Shown here one piece after another: positions 2,806 through 53,469 of a stretch of 64,000 bases of DNA. Numbering within the stretch: position 1 is the first letter of the stretch; each line of letters opens with the position of its first letter. Origin of the DNA: Mustelus asterias (Eukaryota); assembly GCF_964213995.1 (NCBI RefSeq), contig NC_135805.1, forward strand, positions 140,616,001-140,680,000, written 5' to 3'. A program made the position numbers and the translations under genes. The notes under the pieces were generated by a model. It did no database searches, was not told where the DNA came from, and worked only from the letters and a program-made list of their open reading frames with translations.

Positions 2806-3016
2806 TGGCTTTTGCTACCAAATAAACCTGTTGGACTTTAACCTGGTGTTGTTAAACTTCTTACTCTGTTTACCCCAGTCCAATGCCAGCGGGGGCAGGG
2901 GGGCAGCAATGAGGCCAGTGATATCTGTATGGGGAGGAGTAACAGCGATGTCTTGGTGGGGGTTTGTGGGGGGCGGCAATGAGGGCAGCGATGTTTGTAT
3001 GGGGAGGGAGGCCAGC

Positions 3017-3748
3017 GAATGGCAGAGTCATCAGGAGTATAGAAACACAGAGGGACCTAGGTGTGCAAGTCCACAAATCCTTGAAGGTGGCAACACAGGT
3101 GGAGAAGGTGGTGAAGAAGGCATATGGTATGCTTGCCTTTATAGGACGGGGTATAGAGTATAAAAGCTGGAGTCTGATGTTGCAGCTGTATAGAACGCTG
3201 GTTAGGCCACATTTGGAGTACTGCGTCCAGTTCTGGTCGCCGCACTACCAGAAGGACGTGGAGGCATTGGAGAGAGTGCAGAGAAGGTTTACCAGGATGT
3301 TGCCTGGTATGGAGGGTCTTAGCTATGAGGAGAGATTGGGTAGACTGGGGTTGTTCTCCTCGGAAAGACGGAGAATGAGGGGAGATCTAATAGAGGTATA
3401 CAAGATTATGAAGGGTATAGATAGGGTGAACAGTGGGAAGCTTTTTCCCAGGTCGGAGGTGACGATCACGGGGGGTCACGGGCTTAAGCTGAGAGGGGCG
3501 AAGTATAACTCAGACATCAGAGGGACGTTTTTTACACACAGGGTGGTGGGGGCCTGGAATGCGCTGCCAAGTAAGGTGGTGGAGGCAGACACGCTGACAT
3601 CGTTTAAGACTTACCTGGATAGTCACATGAGCAGCCTGGGAATGGAGGGCTACAAACGATTGGTCTAGTTGGACCAAGGAGCGGCACAGGCTTGGAGGGC
3701 CGAAGGGCCTATTTCCTGTGCTGTACTGTTCTTTGTTCTTTGTTCTTT
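3017..3748 (+). mobile_element. 5'-truncated CR1 (RT C-terminus open, (TGTTCTT)n tail)
   Basis: QRDLGVQVH..LYRTLVRPHLEYCVQFWSP..RTFFTHRVVGAWNALP in ORF 2964..3668. Confidence 0.95.
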
Positions 3749-5526: not shown

Positions 5527-6097
5527 TAATGTTTAATGCTCCAGTTGTACAGGGTATTGATGAGACCACATTTGGAGTAGTGTGTGTAGTTTTGATCTCC
5601 TTATTTAAGAATGGATATAAATATATTAGAAGCAGTTCAGAAAAAGTTTACTCGACTGATGTCTGGGATGGGGAGGTTATCTTGTGAGGAAAGCTTGGAC
5701 AGGCTGGGCCTGTATCCAATGGTGTTTAGAAGAATGAGATCTGATGTTATGTAAGACCCTGAGAGGACTTAATAGGGTGGATGGTGAAAGGATCTCTTGT
5801 AGGAGAGACTACAACTAGAGGACACATTTAAAAATAAAGGGTCTCTAATTTAAGACTGAGGAGGTGAGAAGAATTTTTTTCACTGAGGGTCATGACTCTT
5901 TGGAATTCTCTTCCCTAAAGAAGAGGGTCATTGAATATTTTTAAGGCAGAGGCAAATAGATTCTTGACTAAAAACAGAATCAAAAGTTATCAGAAAGTGG
6001 AGTTAAGGCCACAAATAGATCCGTCATAACCTTATTGAATGGTGGAGTAGGCTCGAGGGACTGAATAACCTACTCCTGCTCCTAATTCATATGTTTG
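5527..6097 (+). mobile_element. Old, degenerate CR1 3' fragment
   Basis: LYRVLMRPHLE*CV*F*SPYLR-like sequence; 3'UTR ..GGAGTAGGCTCGAGGGACTGAATAACCTACTCC.. Confidence 0.85.
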
Positions 6098-12969: not shown

Positions 12970-13910
12970 AGAGTACAGGAAATAGTAACAGCAGTATACC
13001 ATATGGCCCCTAGAGCCTGTTCAGCCATTTGGTACAATCATGACTGATCTTCTGCCTCAACTCCACTTTCTTGCCTGCTTCCCATATCCCTTGATTCTCT
13101 GAGAAACCAAAACACAATCTATCTCAGCATTAGACTTTACTCAATAGTGAGCAACCACAGCCTTCTGGGGTAGAGAATTACAAAGATTCATAAGCCTTTG
13201 AGTGAAGAAATTCCTCTTCAACTCAGTTGTAAATAATCAGCTCCTTATCTTAAGACTATGCCTCCATGTTCTAGATTTCCCAGCCAGGGGAAACAGCCTC
13301 TCAATGTCTATCATGTTAAGCCACTTCAGAATCTTCTATGTTTCAGTGAGATCATTTCTCATTCTTCAAATCTCCAGAGAGTCAAGGACCAATTTAATCA
13401 AACTTTCATCATATCTCATCCCAGGAACCAATTCAGTGAATCTTCATTATAAACTCTGGCAAATTTACCCTTCCTTTGATATAGGAACGCTATTCCAGGT
13501 GTAGTCTCACCAACACACTGTGTAGTTGTAACAAGACTTCCATATTATTGGTAATTAGGCCATCATGTTATTTGCCTTTTTAATTGCTTGCTGTACCTGC
13601 ATGCTAACTTTCCCTGTTCCTTGTACGAGTACATCCAAGCCTCTTTGAACATCAACATTTACAAGTTTCACATCATTTAAAAAATATTATGCTTTTCTAT
13701 ACTTACAACCAAAGTGACTAAACTCAGACTTCCCTACATTCTCCTACATCTGCCATCTGTCTCCATCTCTTGTGTCCTCTTTGTGTCCTCACAGCCTACA
13801 TTTCCACCCAGCTTTGTATTGTCAGCAAACTTGGATACATTGCTTTCTGTATTTTTGCCTCATGTATATTGCAAATAGCTGAGGCTAAGCATTGATCTTT
13901 ATATTGCACC
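12970..13910 (-). mobile_element. Old, degenerate CR1 3' fragment
   Basis: The reverse strand shows SKFAD and VRLHLE-like motifs and a CR1-type 3'UTR. Confidence 0.75.
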
Positions 13911-14696: not shown

Positions 14697-17097
14697 TAGA
14701 CATAGAACAGCACAGTACAGGCCCTTCGGCCCTCAATGTTGTGCCGAGCTTTGTCCGAAACCAAGATCAAGCTATCCCACTCCCTATCATTCTGGTGTGC
14801 TCCATGTGCCTATCCAATAACCACTTGAAAGTTCCTAAAGTGTCCGACTCCACTATCACAGCAGGCAGTCCATTCCACACCCCAACCACTCTCTGAGTAA
14901 AGAACCTACTTCGGATATCCCTCCTATATAGTTTTTTGAGGAAGTGACAAAAACGGTTGACAAAGGAAGGGCCGTGGATGCCGGCTATATGGATTTCAGT
15001 AAGGCATTTGACAAAGTCCCTCATGGCAGGTTGGTTAAGAAGGTTAAGGCTCATGGGATACAAGGAGAGGTGGCTAGATGGGTAGAGAACTGGCTTGGCC
15101 ACAGGAGACTCAGGGTAGCAGTCGAAGGGTCTTTTTCCAGCTGGAGGTCTGTGACCAGTGGTGTTCCGCAGGGCTCTGTACTGGGACCTCTGCTATTTGT
15201 GATATATATGAATGATTTGGAAGAAGGTGTAACTGGTGTTATCAGCAAGTTTGCGGATGACACGAAGATGGCTGGACTTGCGGATAGCAATGAACATTGT
15301 CGGACAATACAGCAGGATATATATAGGCTGGAAAATTGGGCGGAGAAATGGCAGATGGAATTTAATCCGGATAAATGCGAAGTGATGCATTTTGGAAGAA
15401 CTAATGTAGGGGGAGTTATACAATAAATGGCAGAGCCATCAAGAGTGTAGAAACACAGAGGGACCTGGGTGTGCAAGTCCACAAATCCTTGAATGTGGCA
15501 GCACAGGTGGAGAAGGTGGTGAAGAAGGCATATGGTATGCTTGCCTTTATAGGACGGGGTATAGATGTTGCAGCTGTAGAGAACGCTGGTTAGACCACAT
15601 TTGGAGTACTGCGTCCAGTTCTGGTCGCCACACTACCAGAAGGATGTGGAGGCTTTAGAGAGAGTGCAGAGAAGGTTTACCAGGATGTTGCCTGGTATGG
15701 AGGGTCTTAGCTATGAGGAGAGATTGGGTAAACTGGGCTGCTTCTCCCTGGAAAGACGGAGAATGAGGGGAGACCTAATAGAGGTGTACAAAATTATGAA
15801 GGGTATAGATAGGGTGAACAGTGGGAAGCTTTTTCCCAGGTCGGAGGTGACGATCACGAGGGGTCACGGGCTCAAGGTGAGAGGGGCGAGGTATAACTCA
15901 GATATCAGAGGGACGTTTTTTACAGAGAGTGGTAGGGGCCTGGAATGTGCTGCCAAGTAGGGTGGTTGAGGCAGACACGGTGGCATCGTTTAAGACTTAC
16001 CTGGATAGTCACATGAGCAGTCTGGGAATGGAGGGATACAAACGAATGGTCTAGTTGGACCAATGAGCGGCACAGGCTTGGAGGGCCGAAGGGCCTGTTT
16101 CCTGTGCTGTACTGTTCTTTGTTCTTATAGTTATGCCCCCTAGTAACAGCTACATTCACCCGAGGAAATAGTCTCTGAATGTCCACTCTATCTATCTCCC
16201 TCATCATCTTATAAACCTCTATTAAGTCGCCTCTCATCCTCCTCCGCTCGAAAGAGAAAAGCCCTAGCTCCCTCAACCTTTCCTCAAGACCTACCCTCCA
16301 AACCAGGTAGCATCCTGATAAATCTCCTCTGCACTCTCTCCAATGCTTCCACATCCTCCTTATAGTGAGGTGACCAGAACTGCACACAATATTCCAAATG
16401 TGGTCTCACCAAGGTCCTGTACAGTTGCAGCATAACCCCACGGCTCTTAAACTCAAACTCCGTGTTAATAAACGCTAACACACTATAGGCCTTCTTCACG
16501 GCTCTATCCACTTGAGTGGCAACCTTCAGAGATCTGTGGATATGAACCCCACGATCTCTCTGTTCCTCCACATTCCTCAGAACCCTGCCGTTGACCCTGT
16601 AATCCGCATTCAAATTTGTCCTACCAAAATGAATCGCCTCGCACTTATCAGGGTTAAACTCCATCTGCCATTTTTCGGCCTAGCTCTGCATCCTATCAAT
16701 GTCTCTTTGCAGCCTACAACAGCCCTCCACCTCATCCACTACTCCACCAATCTTGATGTCATCAGCAAATTTACTGATCCACCCTTCAGCCCTCTCCTCC
16801 AAGTCATTGATAAAAATCACAAATAGCAGAGGACCCAGCACTGATCCCTGTGGTACACCGCTAGTAACTGGTCTCCAGTCTGAAAATTTTCCATCCACCA
16901 CCACCCTCTGTCTTCTATGAGATAGCCAGTCACTTATCCAATTGGCCAAATTTCCCTCTATCCCACACCTCCTTACTTTCTTCATGAGCCGACCATGGGG
17001 AACCTTATCAAACGCCTTACTAAAATCCATGTATACGACATCAACTGCTCTACCTTCATCTACACACTTAGTTACCTCCTCAAAGAATTCAATCAAA
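14697..17097 (-). mobile_element. 5'-truncated CR1 (same subfamily as 33721-35441) split by an antisense CR1
   Basis: RT ORFs 16680..17096, 16284..16664 and 15920..16387, with the 3' end at 14697-14930. Confidence 0.92.
14931..16126 (+). mobile_element. 5'-truncated CR1 (same subfamily as 3017-3748)
   Basis: ORFs 14944..15426 (DFSKAFD, QGSVLGP, FADD) and 15601..15960; 3'UTR nearly identical to about 3670-3745. Confidence 0.95.
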
Positions 17098-17877: not shown

Positions 17878-18510
17878 AACAAAGAACAAAAGAAATTACA
17901 GCACAAGAACTGGCCCTTCGGCCCTCCAAGCCTGCACCAACCATGCTGCCCGACTGAACTAAAACCCCCTACCCTTCCGGGGACCATATCCCTCTATTTC
18001 CATCCTGTTCATGAATTTGTCCAGATGCCCTTTAAAACTCACTATCGTATCTGCTTCCACTACCTCTCCCGGCAGCAGGCTCCAGGCATCCACCATCCTC
18101 TGTGTAAAAAAAAACTTGCCTCGTACATCTCCTTTAAACTTTGCTCCCTCGCACCTGAAACTTATGTCCCCTAGGACATCCTGGGGACATACCTATGTTG
18201 TTAGTACCAAGATGTACCACGACCACTGGCTGTTCACCCTCTCCCTTCAGAATGCTTTCGGCTCGTTCAGAGACATCCTGGACCGTGGCATCAGGGAGGC
18301 AACATACCATCCTGGAGTCTCTTTCACATCCACAGAAGCACCTGTCTGCACACCTAACTATAGAGTCCCCAGTAACTATTGCTCTTGTACTCTTTGTCCC
18401 TCCTTGCTTAACAACAGAGCCAGCCATGGTGCCACTGCTCTGACTGCTGCTGTTAACCCCTGATAGGCCACCTCCCCAACAGTATCCAAAATGGTATACT
18501 TGTTAGAGAG
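17878..18510 (-). mobile_element. Internally deleted CR1: ORF1 esterase fragment joined to the 3' end
   Basis: AIVTGDSIVR..VCCLP..VVVHLGTNNIG (18427-18190), directly followed by the last ORF2 codons, 3'UTR and tail. Confidence 0.85.
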
Positions 18511-28849: not shown

Positions 28850-30000
28850 CTATTTAAAAACAGAGGTAGCAGGAAAACAGGAATTATAAACCAGTAAACC
28901 AGACGCCAGTAGTGGGGAACATTCTAGAATCCTGTATACTGACATGGATAGGAAACTGGTTGGCAGACAGGAAATAAGCAATAGGAATAAACGGATCTTT
29001 TTCCTAATGGCAGGCAGTGACTAGTGGGGTACCGCAGGAATCAGTGCTGAGACCCTAGCTATTCACTATATAAATTATTTAGATGGGGGAGCTAAATGTT
29101 ATATCTCCAAATATGCAGATGAGACAAAACTGGGTGGGAGGGTGAGCTGTGCGGAGGATGCAGAGATCCTTCAGTGTAATTTGGACAAGTTGAGTGAGTG
29201 GGCAAATGAATAGCAGTATAATTTGGATAAACCTGAGATTATCCACTTTGGTAGCAGATTACTATCTGAATGGCCATAAATTAGGAGAGGGGAATGTGCA
29301 ACAGGACCTGGGTGTCCTTTTACACCAGTCACTGAAGGTAAGCATGCAGTTGCAGCAGGCAGTAAGAGGCAAATGGTATGTTGGGCTTCATAGCGAGAGG
29401 ATTCGAGTGTAGGAACAGGGGTGTTTTGCTGTAATTATACAAGGCCTTGGTGAGACCACACCTGGAGTACTGTGTGCAGTTTTGGTCTATTTATCTGAGG
29501 AAGGATGCTCTTGCTGTGGAGGGAGTGCAGAGAAGGTTTACCAGACTGATTCCTGGGATGGCAGGACTGAAGTATGAGGAGAAATTGAGTCAATTAGGAT
29601 TGTATTCGCTGGAGTTCAGATGAATTGAGGGGGGGATCTCCGAGAAACCTATAATACTCTAACAGTAGTAGACATGGTAGATGAAAGAAGAATGTTCCCG
29701 ATGGTGGGGGTGTGTAGAACCAGAAGTCACAGCCTGAGGATACAAGGAAGACCATTTAGGACAAAGATGAGAAATTGTTTCACCCTGAGAGTGGTCAGCC
29801 TGTGGAATTCACGACCACAGAAAGTAGTTGACACCAAAACATTGCATGTTTTCAAGAAGCAGTTGGATATAGCATTTGGGTTGCAGGAGATCAAAGGATG
29901 TGGGGGAAATGCGGGATCAGGTTATTGAGGTCGATGATGATAATGAATGGCAGAGCAGGCTTGAATGGCCTCCTCCTGCTCCTATATTCTATGTTTCTAT
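28850..30000 (+). mobile_element. Older degenerate CR1
   Basis: NYKPVN, GVPQESVL and LVRPHLEYCVQFW motifs, CR1 3'UTR and TTCTATG tail. Confidence 0.85.
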
Positions 30001-30006
30001 ATAATA

Positions 30007-30320
30007 CGGTGGCTCAGTGGTTAGCACTGCTGCCTCACAGCGACTGGGTTTAATTCCAGCCTTGGGGACTGTCTGTTTGGAGTTTGTCCGTTCTCTCGGT
30101 GTCAGCTTGGGTTTCCTCCAGGTTCTCCAGTATCCTTCCACAGTCCAAAGATGGGCAGGTTAGGTAGATTGCCCATGCTAAATTGCCTCTTAGTGTCCAA
30201 ACATGTGTAAGTTAGGGGGATTAGCGAGATAGATGTTTGGGGTTACGGGGATAGGGCAGAAGGTCTGTCGAAGAGTAGGTGTTCACTTGATGGGCCTCCT
30301 CCTGTACTATAGGGATTCAA
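30007..30320 (+). mobile_element. V-SINE/HE1-like tRNA SINE
   Basis: GGTGGCTCAGTGGTTAGCACTGCTGCCTCACAGCG head; core as in the 13965 copy. Confidence 0.85.
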
Positions 30321-30479
30321 TGAATCTGAAACAACATGAGTTCCTCCCCCGAATTTACTCGGAGCCCATGTTAACGAATACTGGATCTTCTCAGGGCTCT
30401 GTACTTTCACCTTTGCTTTTCATCCTCTATATAAATGATTGTTGATCAGAGTAAAATGATATAACAATCCTGAAATGAC

Positions 30480-32600
30480 GGGTAAATTGGAAGGAGGCAT
30501 TCTTGGGGAAAAGTACCGAAGGAAAGTGGAGGATTTTCAAGGAATGTTTGTCTGGAGCTCTGCATGACAACGTTCCGATGAGACAGGGGGGTGTTGGTAG
30601 GGTACGGGAACCGTGGTGCACGAAGGTTGTGATGAACCTGGTGAATAAGAAAAGAGAGGCGTACAGAAGGTTCAGAGAGCTAGGAGGTGTTAAGGATTTA
30701 GAGGAGTATACGGGATGTAGGAAGGAGCTTAAGAAGGAAATTAGGAGAGCGAGAAGGGGTCATGAGAAGACCTTGGCGGGTAAGATTAAGGAGAATCCCA
30801 AGGCTTTCTACAAATATGTCAAGAGTAAAAGGATGAGATGTGAAGGCATAGGACCCTTAAAAGGTGAAGGGGGAAAAGTTTGTGCGGAACCGTTAGAAAT
30901 GGCGGAGGTGCTTAATGAATACTTTACCTCGGTATTCACGGTGGAAAGGGATCTGGGTGGTTGTTCTGCTGGTTTGCGGTGGACAGAAAGGACAAAAAGG
31001 ATCGAGCATGTGGACATAAAGAAAGAGGATGTGTTGGAACTATTGAATGGCATCAAGGTTGGTAAGTCGCCGGGACCGGATGGGATGTACCCCAGGTTAC
31101 TGTGGGAGGCGAGGGAGGAGATTGCGGAGCCTTTGGCGATGATCTTTGCATCGTCGATGGAGACGGGAGAGGTTCCGGAGGATTGGAGGATTGCAGATGT
31201 GGTCCCTATATTCAAGAAAGGGAACAGGGACAGCCCGGGAAATTACCGACCGGTGAGTCTAACCTCAGTGGTTGGTAAGTTGATGGAGAGGATCCTGAGA
31301 GACAGGATTTATGATCATCTAGAGAAGTTTAGTATGATCAAAAGTAGTCAGCACGGCTTTGTCAAGGGCAGGTCGTGCCTTACGAGCCTGGTTGAGTTCT
31401 TTGAAAATGTGACCAAACACATTGACGAAGGAAGAGCGGTGGATGTGGTCTATATGGACTTCAGCAAGGCGTTCGATAAGGTCCCCCATGCAAGACTTCT
31501 TGAGAAAGTGAGAGGATCCAAGGGGCTGTTGCCTTGTGGATCCAGAACTGGCTTGCCTGCAGAAGGCAGAGAGTGGCTGTGGAGGGGCCTTTCTCTGCAT
31601 GGAGGTCAGTGACCAGTGGAGTGCCCCAGGGATCTGTTCTGGGATTTTTGCTGTTTGTCATTTTCATAAATGAGGAAGTGGAGGGATGGGTTGGTAAGTT
31701 TGCTGACGACACCAAGGTAGGTGGTGTTGTGGATAGTTTGGAGGGATGTCAGAAGTTGCAGCGAGACATAGATAGAATGCAAGACTGGGCGGAGAAGTGG
31801 CAGATGGACTTCAACCCGGATAAGTGTGTAGTGATCCATTTTGGCAGATCCAATGGGATGAAGCAGCAGTATAATATGAAGGGTACCATTCTTAGCAGTG
31901 TAGAGGATCAGAAGGACCTTGGGGTCCGGGTCCATAGGACTCTTAAATCGGCCTCGCAGGTGGAGGATGCGGTCAAGAAGGCGTATGGCGTACTAGCCTT
32001 CATTAATCGAGGGATTGAGTTTAGGAGTCGGCAGATAATGCTGCAGCTTTATAGGACCCTGGTTAGACCCCATTTGGAGTACTGCGCGCAGTTCTGGTCA
32101 CCTCATTACAGGAAAGATGTTGAAGCCATTGAAAGGGTGCAGAGGAGATTTACAAGGATGTTGCCTGGATTGGGGGGCATGCCTTATGAGGATAGGTTGA
32201 GGGAGCTTGGTCTCTTCTCCCTGGAGAGACGAAGGATGAGAGGTGATCTGATAGAGGTTTACAAGATGTTGAGAGGTCTGGATAGGGTAGACTCTCAGAG
32301 GCTATTTCCAAGGGCTGAAATGGTTGCTACGAGAGGACACAGGTTTAAGGTGCTGGGGGGTAGGTACAGAGGAGATGTCAGGGGTAAGTTTTTCACTCCG
32401 AGGGTGGTGGGTGAGTGGAATCGGCTGACGTCGGTGGTGGTGGAGGCAAACTCGTTGGGGTCTTTTAAGAGACTTCTGGATGAGTACATGGGATTTAATG
32501 GGATTGAGGGCTATAGATAGGCCTAGAGGTAGGGATATGATCAGCGCAACTTGTGGGCCGAAGGGCCTGTTTGTGCTGTGGCTTTCTATGTTCTATGTTC
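30480..32600 (+). mobile_element. 2.1-kb 5'-truncated CR1 ORF2 with one frameshift near 31515
   Basis: ORFs 30503..31612 and 31534..32520 together give the linker and complete RT; (TTCTATG)n tail. Confidence 0.95.
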
Positions 32601-32679
32601 TAATATGGTACTTGTGGGTCTCGTAAGGAATAAAAAAGGAAACTGTAGGATCTCGCAGTTTGTAAAATGGTATGAATTT

Positions 32680-33208
32680 TTTTTAAATTCACTTGTGGGA
32701 CATGGGCATTGCTGGCTGGCTAGCATTTATTGCCTATCCCTGGTTGCCCTTGAGAAGGTGGTGGTGAAGTGCCTCCTTGAAACACTGTAGTCTACGTCTG
32801 TGGGTTGACCCACAAAGCCGTTAGGGAGGGAATTCCAGGATTTTGACCCAGCGACTGTGAAGGAACGGTAATATTTTCAAGTCAGGATGGTGAGTGGCTT
32901 GGCAGGGATCTTGCAGATGATGCTGTCCCCATGCATCTGCTACCCTGTCCTTCCAGATCAAAGTGATTGTGGGTTTGGAAGGTGCTGTCTAAGGATCTTT
33001 GATGAATTGCTGCAGTGCATATTGTAGATAGCACACACTGCTGCTACTGAGCGTCGGTGGTGGAGGGAGTGGATGTTTGTAGATGTGGTGTCAATCAAGC
33101 GGGTTTCTTTGTCCTGGATGGTGTCAAGCTTCTTCAGTGTTGTTAGAACTGCACTCATCCAAGCAAGTGGTGAGTATTCCATCACACTCCTTACTTGTGA
33201 CTTGTAGA
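32680..33208 (-). mobile_element. 3' fragment of the LINE family at 41280-42450
   Basis: MMEYSPLAWMSAVLTTLKKLDTIQDK. Confidence 0.85.
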
Positions 33209-33720
33209 TAATTCTCTTAAATTGAATGAAAACAAGACATAATAACTAATTATAGACTTTACGAAAAAGCCAGTTAATTATATTGTTCCTTGAAGATTCA
33301 TAATGTGGACAGTGAAATAGTTACTATGATTACCTAGGTATCAAAGTAGATGACAAGTTGAATTGGAGGGAGGGAGCAGTACATAATGTACTGTGGTGAC
33401 CAAGGAACATACAAATTTATGCTACATTAGAAAATTAAAATCTTTTTGAGTAGACCCCACAATCATCTGACTCTTCTATACTGCTCTAGTTTGCAGTGTA
33501 AAGGTTAATGTGGGACTGAGTCCAATATCACCCAGTGATGGAGGAGAATATATTACCTACACCCAGGATCAGTTGAGTGTTAAACAGTTGTGTGAACCAG
33601 CAAGCATGGAGACAGCTCGTAGCTTGTTCCCTTCACTGTGCATTTGTAAGTAGTTCTAAGAGTCAATAAAGACTTGCAGTTAACTTACTTATGATTACAA
33701 AGATTTCTTCAGACGTACTG

Positions 33721-35441
33721 GGAACTTGTGTATGGAGTCAGTAAAGATAGGCGAGGTGAAGAATGAATACTTTTCTTCAGTGTTCACCAAGGAGAGGGGC
33801 CATGTTTTTGAGGAAGAGAAGGTGTTACAGGCTAATAGGCTGGAGGAAATAGATGTTCGGAGGGAGGATGTCCTGGCAGTTTTGAATAAACTGAAGGTCG
33901 ATAAGTCCCCTGGGCCTGATGAAATGTATCCTAGGATTCTTTGGGAGGCAAGGGATGAGATTGCAGAGCCTTTCGCTTTGATCTTTGGGTCCTCGTTGTC
34001 CACAGGGATGGTGCCAGAGGACTGGAGAATGGCGAATGTTGTTCCTCTGTTTAAGAAAGGGAATAGAAATGACCCTGATAATTATAGACCGGTTAGTCTT
34101 ACTTCGGTGGTTGGTAAATTGATGGAAAAGGTCCTTAGAGATGGGATTTACGACCATTTAGAAAGATGCAGATTAATCCGGGATAGTCAGCACGGATTCG
34201 TGAAGGGCAAGTCGTGCCTCACAAATTTGATAGAATTTTTTGAGGAGGTAACTAAGTGTGTTGATGAAGGTAGGGCAGTTGATGTCATATACATGGATTT
34301 TAGTAAGGCGTTTGATATGGTCCCGCATGGTCGGCTTATGATGAAAGTGAGGAGGTGTGGGATAGAGGGAAAGTTGGCCGATTGGATAGGTGACTGGCTG
34401 TCTGATCGAAGACAGAGGGTGGTGGTCGATGGAAAATTTTCGGATTGGAGGCAGGTTGCTAGCGGAGTGCCGCAGGGGTCAGTGCTTGGTCCTCTGCTCT
34501 GTGATTTTTATTAATGACTTAGAGGAGGGGGCTGAAGGGTGGATCAGTAAATTTGCTGATGACACCAAGATTAGTGGAGTAGTGGATGAGGTGGAGGGCT
34601 GTTGTAGGCTGCAAAGAGACATAGATAGGATGCAAAGCTGGGCTGAAAAATGGCAAATGGAGTTTAACCCTGATAAATGTGAGGTGATTCATTTTGGTAG
34701 GACTAATTTAAATGTGGATTACAGGGTCAAAGGTAGGGTTCTGAAGACTGTGGAGGAACAGAGAGATCTTGGGGTCCATATCCACAGATCTCTAAAGGTT
34801 GCCACTCAAGTGGATAGAGCTGTGAAGAAGGCCTATAGTGTGTTAGCTTTTATTAACGGGGTTGGAGTTTAAGAGCCGTGGGGTTATGCTGCAACTGTAC
34901 AGGATCTTGGTGAGACCACATTTGGAATATTGTGTGCAGTTCTGGTCACCTCACTATCAGAAGGATGTGGAAGCGCTGGAAAGAGACTTACCAAGATGCT
35001 GCCTGGTTTGGAGGGTAGGTCTTATGAGTAAAGGTTGAGGGAGCTAGGGCTATTCTCTCTGGAGCGGAGGAGGCTGAGGGGAGACTTAATAGAGGTTTAT
35101 AAAATGATGAAGGGGATAGATAGAGTGAACGTTCAAAGACTATTTCCTTGGGTGGATGGAGCTATTACAAGGGGGCATAACTATAGGGTTCGTGGTGGGA
35201 GATATAGGAAGGATATCAGAGGTAGGTTCTTTACGCAGAGAGTGGTTGGGGTGTGGAATGGACTGCCTGCAGTGATAGTGGAGTCAGACACTTTAGGAAC
35301 ATTTAAGCGGTTATTAGATAGGCACATGGAGCGCACCAGGATGATAGGCAGTGGGATAGCTTGATCTTGGTTTCAGATAAAGCTCGGCATAACATCGTGG
35401 GCCGAAGGGCCTGTTCTGTGCTCTACTGTTCTATGTTCTAT
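33721..35441 (+). mobile_element. 5'-truncated CR1 with 6-bp TSD GTACTG
   Basis: RT ORFs 33726..34514, 34390..34872 and 35035..35364; GTACTG at 33715-33720 and 35442-35447. Confidence 0.95.
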
Positions 35442-41279: not shown

Positions 41280-42450
41280 TTTTGGGACATGGGCGTCGCT
41301 GGCTGGCCAGCATTTATTGCCCATTCCTAGTTGCCCTTGAGAAGGTGGTGGTGAGCTACCTCCTTGAATCACTGCAGTCCATGTGCTGTGGGTTGACCCA
41401 CAATGCCGTTAGGGAGGGAATTCCAGGATTTTGACCCAGCGACTGTGAAGGAATGGCGATATATTTCCGAGTCAGGACGGTGAGTGGCTTGGAGGGGAAC
41501 TTGCAGGTGGTGGCGTTCCCATGTATCTGCTGCCCTTGTCCCTCTAGATGGAAGTGGTTATGGGTTTGGAAGGTGCTGTTTAAGGATCTTTGGTGAATTG
41601 CTGCAGTGCATCTTGTAGATAGTATACACTGCTGCTGCTGAGCATTGGTGGTGGAGGGAGTGGATGTTTGTAGATGTGGTACCAATCAAGCGGGCTACTT
41701 TGTCCTGGATGGTGTCAAGCTTCTTGAGGGTTGTTGGAGCTGCACCCGTCCAGGCAAGTGGAGAGTATTCCATCACACTCCTGACTTGTTCATTGTAGAT
41801 GGTGGGTAGGCTTTGGGGAGTCAGGAGGTGAGTTACTCACTGCAGTATTCCTCGCTTCTGACCTGCTCTTGTAGCCACTGTGTTTATGTGGTGAGTCCAG
41901 TTGAGTTTCTGGTCAATGGTGACCCCAACGATGTTGACAGTGGGGGATTCAGTGATGGTTACACCATTGTATGTCAAGGGGTGGTGGTTAGAGTGTCTCT
42001 TATTGTTGATGGTCATTGCCTGTCATTTGTGTGGCACAAATGTCACTTGCCACTTGTCAGCCCAAGCCTGGATATTGTCCAGATCTGGTTGCATTTGAAC
42101 ATGGACTGCTTCAGTATCTGAGGAGTTGCGAATGGTGCTGAACATTGTGCAATCATCGGCGAACATCCCCATTTCTGACCTTATGACGGAGGGAAGGTTA
42201 TTGATGAAACAGCTGAAGATTGTTTGGGCTGAGAACACTGCCCTGAGGGACTCCTAGAGAGATGTCCTGGAACTGAGATGACTGATCCTCCACAACCATA
42301 ACCATCTTCCTAAGTACCAGGTATGCCTCCAGCCAGTCGAGTGTTTGCCCCCTGATACCCATTGATTCCAGTTTTGCTAGGGCTCCTTGATGCCACACTC
42401 ATTCAAATAAGGCCTTGATGTCAAGGGTTGTCACTCTCAACTCACCTCTA
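41280..42450 (-). mobile_element. CR1-group LINE (distinct subfamily) RT 3' part
   Basis: [31 protein letters not shown]. Further fragments at about 4670-4750, 23030-23180, 48275-48385 and 55770-56080. Confidence 0.88.
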
Positions 42451-49295: not shown

Positions 49296-49513
49296 CCAAT
49301 CTGAATATTTGCAGCTTCCATTTTCAGTCCTGCATCAAATATAAAACACCTTCTGATTTATTTCCTATCCAGAATCCCCTACTATTTAATATCATGGCAT
49401 ATCAATTATAGAACATAGAACATAGAACATAGAACATTACAGCGCAGAACAGGCCCTTCGGCCCACGATGTTGCACCGACCAGTTAAAAAAAAAAAAACT
49501 GTGACCCTCCAAC

Positions 49514-52333
49514 CTAAACCAATTTCTTTTCGTCCATGAACCTATCTACGGATCTCTTAAACGCCCCCAAACTAGGCGCATTTACTACTGATGCTGGCAG
49601 GGCATTCCAATCCCTCACCACCCTCTGGGTAAAGAACCTACCCCTGACATCGGTTCTATAACTACCCCCCCTCAATTTAAAGCCATGCCCCCTCGTGCTG
49701 GATTTCTCCATCAGAGGAAAAAGGCTATCACTATCCACCCTATCTAAACCTCTAATCATCTTATATGTTTCAATAAGATCCCCTCTTAGCCGCCGCCTTT
49801 CCAGCGAAAACAATCCCAAATCCCTCAGCCTCTCCTCATAGGATCTCCCCTCCATACCAGGCAACATCCTGGTAAACCTCCTCTGCACCCTCTCCAAAGC
49901 CTCCACATCCTTCCTGTAATGTGGGGACCAGAACTGCACACAGTACTCCAAGTGCGGCCGCACCAGAGTTGTGTACAGTTGCAACATAACGCTACGACTC
50001 CTAAATTCAATCCCCCTACCAATAAACGCCAAGACACCATATGCCTTCTTAACAACCTTATCTACTTGATTCCCAACTTTCAGGGATCTATGCACACATA
50101 CACCTAGATCCCTCTGCTCCTCCACACTATTCAAAGTCCTCCCGTTAGCCCTATACTCAACACATCTGTTATTCCTACCAAAGTGAATTACCTCACACTT
50201 CTCCGCATTAAACTCCATCCGCCACCTCTCGGCCCAACTTTGCAACCTGTCTAAGTCTTCCTGCAAACTACGACACCCTTCCTCACTGTCTACCACACCA
50301 CCGACTTTGGTGTCATCAGCAAATTTGCTAATCCACCCAACTATACCCTCATCCAGATCATTAATAAATATTACAAACAGCAGTGGCCCCAAAACAGATC
50401 CCTGAGGTACACCACTTGTAACCGCACTCCATGATGAATATTTACTATCAACCACCACCCTCTGTTTCCTATCCGCTAGCCAATTCCTGATCCAATTTCC
50501 TAGATCACCCCCAATCCCATACATCTGCATTTTCTGCAGAAGCCTACCATGGTGAACCTTATCAAACGCCTTACTAAAATCCATATATACCACGTCCACT
50601 GCCTTGCCCCCATCCACCTCCTTGGTCACTTTCTCAAAAAACTCAATAAGGTTAGTAAGGCACGACCTACCTGCCACAAAACCATGCTGACTATCACCTA
50701 TCAATTCATTACTCTCCAAATAACTATAAATCCTATCCCTTATAATTTTTTCCAACATCTTGCCGACAACAGAAGTGAGACTCACCGGTCTATAATTCCC
50801 GGGGAAGTCTCTGTTCCCCTTCTTAAACAATGGGACAACATTCGCTAACCTCCAATCTTCTGGTACTATACCAGAGGCCAACGACGACCTGAAGATCAGA
50901 GCCAGAGGCTCTGCAATCACTTCTCTTGCCTCCCAGAGAATCCTTGGATAAATCCCATCCGGAGCAGGGGATTTATCTATTTTCAGACCCTCCAGAATAT
51001 CCTGCACATCCTCCTTATCAACTGTAATACTGTCTATTCTACTCCCTTGCAACCCAGTGTCCTCCTCAGCTATATTCATGTCCCCTTGCGTGAACACCGA
51101 AGAGAAATATTGGTTCAATGCTTCACCAATCTCCTCCGGTTCCACACATAACTTCCCTCTGCCATCTATAACTGGCCCTAAACTTGCCCTAACCAACCTT
51201 CTGTTCTTGACATACCTATAGAACGCCTTAGGATTCTCTTTAACCCTATCCGCCAAAGTCTTCTCATGTCCCCTTTTAGCCCTTCTAAGCTCGCTCTTCA
51301 ACTCCCTCTTAGCCAATCTAAAGCTTTCTAGTGCACTACCCGAGTGCTCACGTCTCATCCGAACATAAGCCTCCTTTTTCTTTTTAACCAACAAAGAAAT
51401 TTTTTTGGTGCACCACGGTTCCCTAGCCCTACCAATTCCTCCTTGCCTGACAGGGACATACCTATCACAGACTCGCAGTAGCTGCTCCTTGAAAAAACTC
51501 CACATGTCGGACGTTCCCAGTCCCTGTAATCTCCTAGTCCAACCTATGTTTCCTAATTCTCTCCTAATAGCCTCATAATTACCCTTCCCCCAGCTAAAAC
51601 CATTGGCCCGAGGTTCATGCCTATCCCTTTCCATCACTAAGGTGAACGTAACCGAATTGTGGTCACTATCACCAAAATGCACACCAACTTCCAAGTCTAG
51701 CACCTGGTCTGGCTCATTTCCCAGCACCAGATCCAATATAGCCTCACCTCTAGTTGGCCTGTCTACATACTGAGTCAAAAAACCTTCCTGCACGCTTTGA
51801 ACAAAAACTGACCCCTCTAACGAGCTAGAGCTATAACAATTCCAGTCAATATTAGTCAAGTTAAAATCCCCCATAACAATTGCCCTATTACTTTCACTCC
51901 TAAGCAGGATTGACTCCGCAATCCTTTCCTCAACCTCTCTAGAACTTTTAGGAGGTCTATAAAAGACTCCCAACAGGGTGACCTCTCCTCTCCTATTTCT
52001 AATCTCCGCCCATACTACCTCAACAGATAAGTCCTCATCAAACCTCCTCTCTGACACTGTGATACAATCTCTGACCAATAATGCTACCCCTCCCCCTCTT
52101 CTACCTCCTTCCCTACTTCGACTAAAACATTTGAACCCCGGGACCTGCAGCATCCATTCCTGCCCCTGCTCTATCCATGTCTCTGAAATAGCCACAACAT
52201 CGAAGTCCCAGGTACTGATCCACGCTGCAAGTTCACCCACTTTATTGCGAATACTCCTGGCATTGAAGTATACACATTTCAAACCCTGCTCCACCCCACC
52301 TCTGCAATGCCGTGCATTGCAGTCCCCATCCAT
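49514..52333 (-). CDS. CR1 ORF2: APE endonuclease plus reverse transcriptase (939 aa from first ATG)
   Basis: APE motifs YFNARS, ISETW, GDFN, DLVL, SDH. RT motifs YRPVSLTS, DFSKAFD, QGSVLGP, FADD. No internal stops. Confidence 0.97.
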   Translation of the reverse strand: MDGDCNARHCRGGVEQGLKCVYFNARSIRNKVGELAAWISTWDFDVVAISETWIEQGQEWMLQVPGFKCFSRSREGGRRGGGVALLVRDCITVSERRFDEDLSVEVVWAEIRNRRGEVTLLGVFYRPPKSSREVEERIAESILLRSESNRAIVMGDFNLTNIDWNCYSSSSLEGSVFVQSVQEGFLTQYVDRPTRGEAILDLVLGNEPDQVLDLEVGVHFGDSDHNSVTFTLVMERDRHEPRANGFSWGKGNYEAIRRELGNIGWTRRLQGLGTSDMWSFFKEQLLRVCDRYVPVRQGGIGRAREPWCTKKISLLVKKKKEAYVRMRREHSGSALESFRLAKRELKSELRRAKRGHEKTLADRVKENPKAFYRYVKNRRLVRASLGPVIDGRGKLCVEPEEIGEALNQYFSSVFTQGDMNIAEEDTGLQGSRIDSITVDKEDVQDILEGLKIDKSPAPDGIYPRILWEAREVIAEPLALIFRSSLASGIVPEDWRLANVVPLFKKGNRDFPGNYRPVSLTSVVGKMLEKIIRDRIYSYLESNELIGDSQHGFVAGRSCLTNLIEFFEKVTKEVDGGKAVDVVYMDFSKAFDKVHHGRLLQKMQMYGIGGDLGNWIRNWLADRKQRVVVDSKYSSWSAVTSGVPQGSVLGPLLFVIFINDLDEGIVGWISKFADDTKVGGVVDSEEGCRSLQEDLDRLQSWAERWRMEFNAEKCEVIHFGRNNRCVEYRANGRTLNSVEEQRDLGVCVHRSLKVGNQVDKVVKKAYGVLAFIGRGIEFRSRSVMLQLYTTLVRPHLEYCVQFWSPHYRKDVEALERVQRRFTRMLPGMEGRSYEERLRDLGLFSLERRRLRGDLIETYKMIRGLDRVDSDSLFPLMEKSSTRGHGFKLRGGSYRTDVRGRFFTQRVVRDWNALPASVVNAPSLGAFKRSVDRFMDEKKLV

Positions 52334-52383
52334 GCATCCCTCACTTTCAGCCCCACTACTCAGGATCCCTCCCCCCCCCCGAA

Positions 52384-53313
52384 TCAGTTTAAACCTCCCT
52401 GCATGGCCTTAGCAAATTTACCCCCCAGGATATTGGTCCCCTTCTGATTAAGGTGTAGACCATCCTTCTCATAGAGGTCACACCTTCCCCAGTACGAGCC
52501 CCAATTGCTTAAGTACCTGAACCCCTCCCTCCTGCACCATCCCCTCAGCCATGAATTCAAACCTTCCCTCTCCCTATTCCTCTCTAAACTATCCCGTGGT
52601 ACAGGCAAGAGTCCAGAGATAACCACTCTGTCAGTCTTGGCCTTTAGTTTCCACCCCAACTCCATAAATCCCTGCCTAATATCCCCTTCCCCTATCCTCC
52701 CTATGTCGTGTGTCCCCACATGTACAATAACTTGTGGTTTATCTCCCTCCCCCCTAAGAGTCCTGAATACCCTGTCAGACACATCCCGGACCCCAGCCCC
52801 TGGTAGGCAACACACCAACCCTGAGTCCCTACCTTTAGTTCCGACCCTCCTATCTGTCTCCTTAATTGTGGAGTCCCCAATCACAAGGCCCAGTCTTTTA
52901 CAGCCCCTAACCACCTGAGCTTTCTCACTCGGCTCACCCCCAGAGATCTGCTCTCTATGCTCAGTTGATTCCTCCTCAACTGTAGCCTCCAGCACCGAAA
53001 ACCTATTATGGAGGGGAACCGCCCCAGGGGATTGTCTTCCCGATTGCTTCTTACCCCTCCTCCTGGCATTGACCCAAGCCTCATTTCTAGGAGTTACTAT
53101 TTCTCTATAACTCCTATCAACTTCCACCTCCGCCTCCCGAATTATGCGGAGTTCCTCTACCTCCCCCTCCAGCTCCTTTACACGCTCCTCCAGAAGCTGC
53201 AATCTAATGCACTTCTTACAACTAAAATCTCCTGAAACACTACTGGATTTCCTCACCACATACATCCCACAGGAGATGCAGCATACTGCCTGAACTGCCA
53301 TCCCTGAAGCCAT
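52384..53313 (-). CDS. CR1 ORF1: Cys-pair zinc finger, coiled coil and SGNH esterase-like domain (309 aa from ATG at 53313)
   Basis: CISC..CKKC, coiled coil LQLLEERVKELEGEVEELR, SGNH blocks GDS / GAG / GTHD / DGLH. First ATG is MASGMAV. Confidence 0.93.
   Translation of the reverse strand: MASGMAVQAVCCISCGMYVVRKSSSVSGDFSCKKCIRLQLLEERVKELEGEVEELRIIREAEVEVDRSYREIVTPRNEAWVNARRRGKKQSGRQSPGAVPLHNRFSVLEATVEEESTEHREQISGGEPSEKAQVVRGCKRLGLVIGDSTIKETDRRVGTKGRDSGLVCCLPGAGVRDVSDRVFRTLRGEGDKPQVIVHVGTHDIGRIGEGDIRQGFMELGWKLKAKTDRVVISGLLPVPRDSLERNREREGLNSWLRGWCRREGFRYLSNWGSYWGRCDLYEKDGLHLNQKGTNILGGKFAKAMQGGLN
52387..52393 (-). promoter_or_regulatory. Candidate -1 ribosomal frameshift slippery heptamer U_UUA_AAC
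   Basis: ORF1 ends GGT TTA AAC TGA; the -1 frame is open into ORF2. Confidence 0.65.
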
Positions 53314-53360
53314 TACCAGCAAGAAAAAAAGAAAACAAAAAAACTTCCCCACACTTCCCC

Positions 53361-53469
53361 AACTGTCACTCTCTACTGCAGCCCGAGCAACACTCCCACA
53401 CTGAGACACCAACTGTCACTCTCCACTGCAGCCCGAGCAACACTCCCTCACTGAGACACCAACTGTCAC
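53361..53469 (-). repeat. 50-bp tandem monomers (about 2.2 copies) in the CR1 5'UTR
   Basis: 53361-53410 and 53411-53460 differ at 2 positions; a partial third copy spans 53461-53469. Confidence 0.9.

What the first reader, a model, noticed from the sequence alone, without database searches (positions are those of the whole stretch)
52333..52410. Candidate programmed -1 ribosomal frameshift fusing ORF1 (esterase) to ORF2 (APE-RT) in an intact CR1 LINE
Seen in sequence: on the minus strand ORF1 ends GGA GGT TTA AAC TGA, so the heptamer U_UUA_AAC (52393-52387) sits in X_XXY_YYZ phase directly before the stop. A -1 slip reads TTT AAA CTG ATT CGG GGG GGG GGA GGG ATC CTG AGT AGT GGG GCT GAA AGT GAG GGA TGC ATG GAT, in frame with ORF2 and without stops. 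That -1 frame is closed by a TAA only five codons upstream, so the overlap is little more than the slippery site. Six nt downstream begins G10-A-GGG-N12-GGGG. Established: UUUAAAC is the coronavirus slippery site, a 5-9 nt spacer is typical, and G-quadruplexes can stimulate -1 frameshifting; mammalian L1 ORF2 is instead made by termination-reinitiation. Inference: this LINE may make a Gag-Pol-like ORF1-ORF2 fusion protein. I cannot tell whether this has already been reported for CR1.
Basis: partly seen in the sequence, partly recalled or inferred. Interest (0 to 1): 0.85.

Follow-up and report, generated by a model that had tools for sequence, protein, structure and literature searches.

The report
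Conserved frameshift signal in CR1 LINEs
An abundant jumping gene ends its first gene with the same seven-letter slippery sequence in every lineage examined, and its second gene continues one letter back, often with no start codon of its own, so ribosomes likely slip back one letter to make a single fused protein, as retroviruses do for Gag-Pol.

Summary
This intact, very young CR1 LINE ends ORF1 (esterase) with T_TTA_AAC_TGA, and ORF2 (endonuclease-RT) is open in the -1 frame from that site. The exact heptamer plus stop occurs in 157 of 174 copies: five lineages of this genome and distant metagenome copies at about 30% ORF1 identity. Other synonymous sites differ at 35-82% between lineages. 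All 11 distinct lineage-level linker lengths (95-248 nt) keep the -1 phase. Two lineages lack any in-frame Met before the endonuclease's catalytic Glu. A G-block starts exactly 10 nt downstream in all six groups. Programmed -1 frameshifting to an ORF1-ORF2 fusion is the best explanation (about 0.82; inferred, no protein evidence). Two corrections. The G-run length breaks the phase in about a quarter of young copies, but as recurrent slippage, not as a lineage. The three-tier G-quadruplex fits only this family (1 of 18 representatives). I found no CR1 report in eight searches; the classic CR1 papers were not held. Dictyostelium TRE5-A/TRE3-A is a non-LTR precedent. This scan noted the same signal before on another genome (e1-8041403).

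The parts
53359..53469 (-). 5' end of the element: about 2.2 copies of a 50-bp unit
52384..53313 (-). ORF1, 309 aa: Cys-rich N-terminus, heptad-like stretch, SGNH/GDSL esterase domain (about 52806-52438); ends ...GGLN-stop
   Evidence: the N-terminal features are read from the sequence
52409..52411 (-). TAA that closes the -1 frame five codons upstream of the heptamer; a stop at this place (-22 from the ORF1 stop) is the usual state in all five main lineages of this genome
52387..52393 (-). Slippery heptamer T_TTA_AAC, predicted -1 shift site
52384..52386 (-). ORF1 stop codon directly after the heptamer (TGA here; TAA or TAG in other lineages; reads CTR = Leu in the -1 frame)
52367..52376 (-). 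Conserved G-block GGGGG-NN-GGG starting 10 nt 3' of the heptamer; candidate stimulator. In this family it lies within G10 (52380-52371) + A + GGG
52351..52354 (-).
52280..52393 (-). Linker, open in the -1 frame (38 codons) up to the endonuclease domain; 107 nt from the ORF1 stop to the domain start
52331..52333 (-). In-frame ATG in the linker; not conserved in other lineages
49514..52408 (-). ORF2, 964 aa stop to stop: APE endonuclease (about 52270-51659) and reverse transcriptase (about 50821-50168)
49408..49437 (-). 3' tail of 7-bp repeats, 4.3 copies

Best explanation
This CR1 LINE carries a conserved slippery site, U_UUA_AAC plus stop, at the very end of ORF1, and ORF2 is likely made by a programmed -1 ribosomal frameshift there, giving a predicted ORF1p-linker-endonuclease-RT fusion. 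Most ribosomes would stop and release ORF1p (309 aa). A minority would slip one base (tRNA-Leu UUA to UUU, tRNA-Asn AAC to AAA) and read on as ...GGLN-LIRGGGG..., about 1,266 aa in this copy. The G-block 10 nt downstream is the likely stimulator; its mode of action (weak two-tier G-quadruplex or protein-bound motif) is unresolved, and the adjacent stop may add pausing. Shown: heptamer, phase, open frame, missing AUG, G-block position. Inferred: slippage, fusion protein, stimulator role.
For: (1) Nucleotide-level conservation. The heptamer is identical in 9 of 9 lineage representatives, while only 1 of 13 other invariant amino-acid columns keeps one codon. Four-fold sites differ at 33-82% in all pairs, and at 61-81% between this family and each other lineage. 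The codon supplying the first U encodes G, S, C, A or D but always ends in T. Exact heptamer + stop in 157 of 174 loci. Terminal LN invariant in 25 of 25 aligned ORF1 proteins, while the residues before it vary (25 of the 35 hits were aligned, chosen as those ending at the esterase C-terminus). (2) Phase. Modal linker lengths are 107, 131, 137, 140, 122 in this genome and 95, 95, 95, 137, 248 in metagenome copies. Further lineages, picked by the motif alone, give 116, 128, 167, 206. All 11 distinct lengths equal 2 mod 3 (about 1e-5 if independent). In that motif-picked set 25 of 27 loci with an endonuclease hit are in -1 phase and all 25 are open. (3) The -1 frame is open in 101 of 110 modal-length copies, while the other two frames typically hold 1-5 stops. 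(4) No conserved AUG: none in the linker of 20 of 20 D and 19 of 22 B copies; the commonest first Met lies 35 (D) or 102 (B) residues into the endonuclease, past the Glu at residue 32 that aligns with L1 endonuclease E43. 13 of 25 motif-picked copies have no Met. (5) The G-block is at +10 nt in all six groups found without selecting for it, with G at third codon positions. (6) U_UUA_AAC is listed among the most shift-prone heptamers on mammalian ribosomes (PMC5009743).
Against: No protein, reporter or ribosome-profiling evidence. About 23% of young copies are off-phase: among the first 100 listed, 77 are -1, 18 are 0 and 5 are +1 (hand count). Across all groups 118 of 156 scorable copies are in -1 phase. 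No canonical stimulator was found: local folding is no more stable than shuffles (60-nt z between -1.0 and +1.1 in 22 sequences), no downstream pairing partner recurs at a homologous place, and a G-quadruplex is in the predicted structure of only 11 of 18 representatives, three-tier in 1 of 18. The invariant G-tract starts at 10 nt, outside the 6-8 nt optimum reported for G-quadruplex stimulators (PMC3919603). One lineage (C) has a SART1-type UAAUG stop-start with an in-frame Met, and this family and lineage E have a linker Met. Lineages share ancestry, so the probabilities are upper bounds on the evidence.
Confidence: 0.82

Rival explanations
1. Termination-reinitiation, as in mammalian L1 (AUG-independent) or silkworm SART1 (UAAUG): the ribosome stops at the ORF1 stop and restarts in the -1 frame, so ORF2p is a separate protein. 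The conserved letters would be a reinitiation signal.
For: It is the established route for L1 and SART1 (PMC2881922, PMC5972666, PMC5009743). Lineage C has UAAUG with an in-frame Met. This family (codon 21) and lineage E (codon 26, 36 of 43 copies) have a linker Met; the five metagenome copies have a Met within the linker.
Against: It does not predict a perfect X_XXY_YYZ heptamer in phase. The Met position is not shared (codons 4, 21, 26 or none). UAAUG/UGAUG occurs in 1 of 18 representatives and no UGGGA (TURBS motif 1) lies 35-85 nt upstream of the stop in any of 18. The near-cognate CUG over the stop is found only in this family; the other 17 have CUA. The frame stays open from the heptamer across 95-248 nt.
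Confidence: 0.09
2. Mixed mode: frameshifting is the ancestral and general route, but some lineages (C, perhaps this family) also or mainly make free ORF2p from a nearby AUG, so off-phase G11 copies could still express ORF2.
For: UAAUG in lineage C; ATG at 52333 in 20 of 20 modal-length copies of this family; 18 of the first 100 copies are in the 0 phase.
Against: No sub-lineage is defined by G11: the shared SNPs at 51603, 51047 and 52859 each mark groups with both G10 and G11 (6:3, 6:3 plus one G16, 3:3). One group (53160) had 5 of 6 off the modal length, in a sample enriched for G11. A close relative of lineage C lacks the UAAUG (L256).
Confidence: 0.05
3. The conservation is protein-level (terminal Leu-Asn of the esterase; Gly-x-Gly in the linker) or reflects a DNA/RNA element unrelated to decoding, such as a splice branch point (CTRAY-like) giving a spliced ORF2 message.
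For: Leu-Asn is invariant. CTGAT/CTAAT resembles a branch-point consensus in some lineages (consensus recalled). The strand is G-rich (G3 0.37-0.40).
Against: TTA is 2 of 24 Leu and AAC 0 of 8 Asn codons elsewhere in this ORF1, yet both are fixed at the end in 9 of 9. Protein constraint does not fix the phase of ORF2. TAG lineages lack the branch-point spelling and there is no pyrimidine tract. No joints were seen in 8 runs laid; this is weak, since nearly all are contigs, RNA status is mostly a guess, and the one raw RNA run had 1 read.
Confidence: 0.04

Closest known systems
Dictyostelium TRE5-A / TRE3-A (APE-type non-LTR retrotransposons)
   Same: [quoted passage not shown] Same ORF1 / APE-RT layout.
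   Different: Amoebozoan tRNA-gene-targeting elements whose ORF1 is unrelated to other non-LTR ORF1s (PMC5006619 passage). I did not see the primary evidence or their shift site. Here the site is U_UUA_AAC + stop + G-block in vertebrate esterase-type CR1.
Coronavirus (IBV) 1a/1b and retroviral gag-pol -1 frameshifting
   Same: Same heptamer as IBV, U_UUA_AAC (PMC5009743 passages); structural-type protein in the 0 frame, polymerase in the -1 frame.
   Different: No pseudoknot or stable hairpin was predicted at 5-9 nt (pseudoknots were not searched directly). The stop follows the heptamer directly. The host is a non-LTR element, not a virus.
Arterivirus (PRRSV) protein-stimulated -2/-1 frameshifting
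   Same: A short unstructured motif at a fixed distance: CCCANCUCC 11 nt 3' of the shift site, bound by nsp1-beta and PCBP (PMC5009743 passage). Here a G-rich motif sits 10 nt 3'.
   Different: The motif is G-rich, no binding protein is known, and the resemblance is positional only.
Mammalian L1 and Bombyx SART1 ORF2 translation
   Same: Bicistronic LINE RNA; ORF2 depends on ORF1 translation (PMC2881922 passage).
   Different: They use termination-reinitiation to give a separate ORF2p (63-nt spacer in L1, UAAUG in SART1; PMC5972666 passage). Here ORF2 overlaps the ORF1 end in a fixed -1 phase and has no conserved AUG.
G-quadruplex-stimulated -1 frameshifting (synthetic and 5'-UTR G4s behind UUUAAAC)
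   Same: Same heptamer; G4s gave up to about 7% at spacers of 6-8 nt (PMC3919603 passages). This family's G10 starts at 6 nt.
   Different: Those were three-tier G4s in reporter constructs; fewer tiers gave less shifting. A three-tier G4 fits only 1 of 18 representatives here.

Membership tests
Esterase-type vertebrate CR1 LINE | ORF2 with APE endonuclease and RT | tested here: met
   Pfam Exo_endo_phos and RVT_1 above cut-off; L1 endonuclease structures hit
Esterase-type vertebrate CR1 LINE | ORF1 with SGNH esterase | tested here: met
   PF13472 E 1.9e-7, 0.7 bit under the cut-off; 31 of 35 homologues checked by eye carry PF13472 or are close relatives, named ones from sharks and rays
Esterase-type vertebrate CR1 LINE | 3' end of short tandem repeats, no poly(A); frequent 5' truncation | tested here: met
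   7-bp tail; many copies lose similarity upstream
Esterase-type vertebrate CR1 LINE | RT phylogeny within the CR1 clade | not tested
   No reference RT set was fetched; the name CR1 rests on architecture and recall
Programmed -1 ribosomal frameshift signal | X_XXY_YYZ heptamer in 0-frame phase | tested here: met
   (last ten codons read ...LN-stop in 30 of 30 motif-picked loci)
Programmed -1 ribosomal frameshift signal | Downstream ORF in the -1 frame, open from the site | tested here: met
Programmed -1 ribosomal frameshift signal | Conservation beyond protein constraint | tested here: met
Programmed -1 ribosomal frameshift signal | Stable stem-loop or pseudoknot 5-9 nt downstream | tested here: not met
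   No hairpin beyond shuffles, no recurring downstream partner; a conserved G-block is there instead
Programmed -1 ribosomal frameshift signal | Measured frameshifting and transframe product | not testable with these tools
   Needs reporter, Ribo-seq or mass spectrometry
G-quadruplex stimulator | Four G-tracts able to stack, conserved across lineages | tested here: inconclusive
   Three-tier pattern 1 of 18; two-tier pattern 13 of 18; in the predicted structure 11 of 18
Termination-reinitiation (SART1 / calicivirus type) | Overlapping or adjacent stop-start AUG; TURBS UGGGA upstream of the stop | tested here: not met
   UAAUG 1 of 18; upstream UGGGA 0 of 18

The most novel reading that the evidence does not exclude
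Vertebrate esterase-type CR1 LINEs, from cartilaginous fish to distant amniote-like copies, make their reverse transcriptase only as a Gag-Pol-like ORF1p-ORF2p fusion by -1 frameshifting at U_UUA_AAC-stop. The shift is driven by a new kind of stimulator: a two-tract G motif fixed 10 nt downstream that acts through a bound protein or a non-canonical quadruplex rather than a stem-loop or pseudoknot.
Probability: 0.4. Interest if true: 0.88.

Novelty: new variant of a known kind. Interest (0 to 1): 0.72.

Why it matters
How LINEs translate ORF2 is an open question, and the reviews I read give reinitiation for the two studied cases (L1, SART1). CR1-group elements are described as the dominant retrotransposon in most vertebrate species (PMC13343379, start of abstract). 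A Gag-Pol-like fusion would tie the RT to the ORF1p particle, set the ORF1p:ORF2p ratio, and put CR1 under host factors that act on frameshifting. It would also change annotation: ORF2 models that start at the first Met are truncated, and 'intact' should be judged from the heptamer. It gives a design rule for CR1 retrotransposition assays. The signal is about 30 nt and can be tested in one reporter experiment; this genome holds about 2,000 near-identical in-phase young copies of the junction.

Tried and rejected

The first 30 loci suggested that G11 (0 phase) dominates: 22 of 30. That list is ordered with a bias towards longer G-runs; position-ordered and whole-genome counts give 75% G10. L001-L030 were therefore dropped from the phase counts and used only in the sub-lineage test.

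Stop-codon readthrough by 0-phase copies: rejected as the family mechanism, since every lineage's modal linker is -1.

Local hairpin and downstream long-range partner: not found. A C-rich stretch about 640 nt upstream ranked among the top duplex hits in several lineages, but it is the P-x-x-V-P-L coding motif and its Pro codons vary; not pursued.

TURBS-like UGGGA: occurs downstream of the stop inside the G-block of some lineages, the wrong side for tethering.

Splicing: no joints in 8 runs, weak evidence. X21 had 1 read and is uninformative. Expression of the element was not shown.

One search's alignment was swamped by flanking DNA of truncated copies and was redone; the higher substitution rate of G11 copies there (7.9 vs 3.0 per kb) was not followed up and may be end-of-alignment noise.

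18 of 28 metagenome loci had no ORF1 C-terminus and were dropped; the scan by sequence of earlier findings returned nothing. No structure or complex prediction was run.
Full report
Observation. On the minus strand ORF1 (53313-52384, 309 aa) ends GGA GGT TTA AAC TGA, with TTTAAAC at 52393-52387. The -1 frame is open from 52408 to 49514, is closed five codons upstream by TAA, and encodes an APE endonuclease and an RT; ORF1 carries an SGNH esterase domain. The element has a 50-bp repeat at its 5' end and a 7-bp repeat tail. Named ORF1 relatives come from sharks and rays, so the host is probably a cartilaginous fish (inference).

The young family. The junction pattern matches 2,654 places in the 3.68-Gb genome, and 1,997 of them (75%) have the window's spacer length. 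Among the first 100 in position order, 77 are in -1 phase, 18 in 0 and 5 in +1 (hand count). The difference is G-run length. I asked whether G11 copies form a lineage. In 54 copies the shared SNPs at 51603, 51047 and 52859 each mark groups with both G10 and G11 members; one group of six had five off the modal length, in a sample enriched for G11. Contigs from four other runs bridge the junction with no gap against the window's G10. Off-phase copies are thus best read as recurrent slips in a G10 run, in copying or in sequencing.

Other lineages. Searches of the genome with divergent ORF1 C-termini (only one search's query held the terminal GLN) gave four more lineages, B-E. A metagenome scan gave distant copies at about 30% ORF1 identity; they resemble amniote CR1, a label from recall. 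Of 238 loci held, 19 had no ORF1 C-terminus, 30 were dropped as a biased list and 15 as duplicates. Of the 174 left, 157 have the exact heptamer plus stop: A 29/29, B 34/38, C 6/7, D 25/30, E 56/60, metagenome 7/10, where two of the three misses are contig ends and one is decayed. B-E are older, mutated copies.

Nucleotide versus protein constraint. Across nine representatives (five lineages, four metagenome copies) the last two codons are TTA AAC in all. The codon before them encodes five different residues but always ends in T. Only 1 of 13 other invariant columns keeps one codon, and four-fold sites differ at 61-81% between this family and each other lineage. Among the five lineages of this genome alone, 14 of 55 invariant columns keep one codon. 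Local codon usage gives about 0.01 per lineage for this spelling.

Phase and start codon. Modal distances from the ORF1 stop to the endonuclease are 107, 131, 137, 140, 122 and, in metagenome copies, 95, 95, 95, 137, 248; per copy, 118 of 156 are in -1 phase. In modal-length copies the -1 frame is open in 101 of 110, while the other frames typically carry 1-5 stops. As a held-out test I took the first 30 genomic matches to the motif alone. All 30 read ...LN-stop at the site; 27 had an endonuclease hit; 25 of these are in -1 phase and all 25 are open; new lengths are 116, 128, 167 and 206. The motif fixes the G-block spacing, so this set excludes most G-run slips. All 11 distinct lengths equal 2 mod 3. 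No AUG is shared: lineage D has none in 20 of 20 linkers and B none in 19 of 22, with the commonest first Met 35 and 102 residues into the endonuclease, beyond the Glu that aligns with L1 E43. A predicted ray protein (P0031) runs from the esterase through FKL into the endonuclease; it is a gene model, so it shows only that the -1 frame is open there too.

Stimulator. In all six groups GGGGG-NN-GGG starts exactly 10 nt after the heptamer, with G at third positions of -1-frame codons. No hairpin beats shuffled controls and no downstream partner recurs. Published G4 stimulators behind UUUAAAC work best at 6-8 nt and with three tiers (PMC3919603). A protein-bound motif at 11 nt is known from PRRSV (PMC5009743). 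The G-block is real and position-locked; how it acts is open.

Mechanism. Shown: heptamer, adjacent stop, fixed -1 phase, open linker, absent AUG in some lineages, G-block. Inferred: tandem tRNA slippage, a fusion of about 1,266 aa in this copy, and a stimulatory role for the G-block and the stop. I put frameshifting at 0.82. Reinitiation remains the main rival (0.09): it is the known route for L1 and SART1, and lineage C has a UAAUG. But it explains neither the heptamer nor the Met-less lineages.

What is known. Paper searches for a CR1 frameshift showed no title or abstract reporting one; one search was for G4 stimulators. I read passages, found by term, of PMC5009743 (first 300,000 characters held; no CR1 mention there), PMC11835228, PMC13343379 (no 'frameshift' in the main text), PMC2881922, PMC5405496, PMC3919603, PMC3708506, PMC5972666, PMC4120745, PMC5911963 and PMC5006619; no supplements. 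PMC5911963 states that Dictyostelium TRE5-A and TRE3-A need a -1 frameshift for ORF2, and PMC5405496 suggests +1 frameshifting or reinitiation for Paramecium elements, so frameshifting in non-LTR elements has precedent. The L1 and SART1 primary papers and the original chicken and turtle CR1 papers were not held; the latter may already mention this site, so novelty in print is not established. This scan noted the same signal on another genome (e1-8041403) and a related one (e1-9568866); these are unchecked AI notes and count as leads only. The first gave me the TRE5-A lead.

Verdict. A real, deeply conserved signal, most likely a programmed -1 frameshift; a new variant of a known kind; interest 0.72.

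Noticed in passing
G000:C1:44400161, 44404150, 44408139: Three junctions of the young family spaced exactly 3,989 bp apart on one strand, about one element length: possibly a head-to-tail array of full-length copies.
   Followed up: no
L017 and L058, linker: The same in-frame 30-nt deletion in the linker, between short direct repeats, in one G11 and one G10 copy; the -1 linker frame downstream is kept.
   Followed up: partly
L114, L107, L201 (lineage C junction): The stop overlaps an in-frame AUG as UAAUG, the SART1 stop-start, on top of the intact slippery heptamer; a close relative (L256) lacks it.
   Followed up: partly
window 52371-52380: This family has turned the interrupted G-block of other lineages into an unbroken G10 run, so about a quarter of its copies carry a length change there, mostly +1.
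   Followed up: partly
P0010, P0027: LINE ORF1 esterases carried in databases under other names: 'SGNH/GDSL hydrolase [Pseudomonas aeruginosa]' (likely host contamination) and '40S ribosomal protein S24 isoform X2 [Pristis pectinata]' (likely a gene model absorbing the LINE).
   Followed up: no
window 3015-3632, 5530-5981, 14851-17096, 18191-18379, 29366-35346: Several older, broken fragments of related ORF2s (51-74% identity) and one ORF1 fragment; none includes an ORF1-ORF2 junction.
   Followed up: partly
window 13150-13838, 28942-29868, 41387-42434: More distant RT fragments (22-46% identity), probably other LINE clades.
   Followed up: no
runs X15, X16, X18 (organisms E, F, H) and X1 (organism A): Contigs from differently labelled organisms match 52000-53342 with 1 difference (X15, X16, X18) or a few (X1): a very recent shared family, mislabelling, or horizontal spread.
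   Followed up: no
about 640 nt upstream of the ORF1 stop (window near 53020-53000): A C-rich P-x-x-V-P-L coding stretch ranks among the best duplex partners of the G-block in several lineages; may be only Pro codons.
   Followed up: partly
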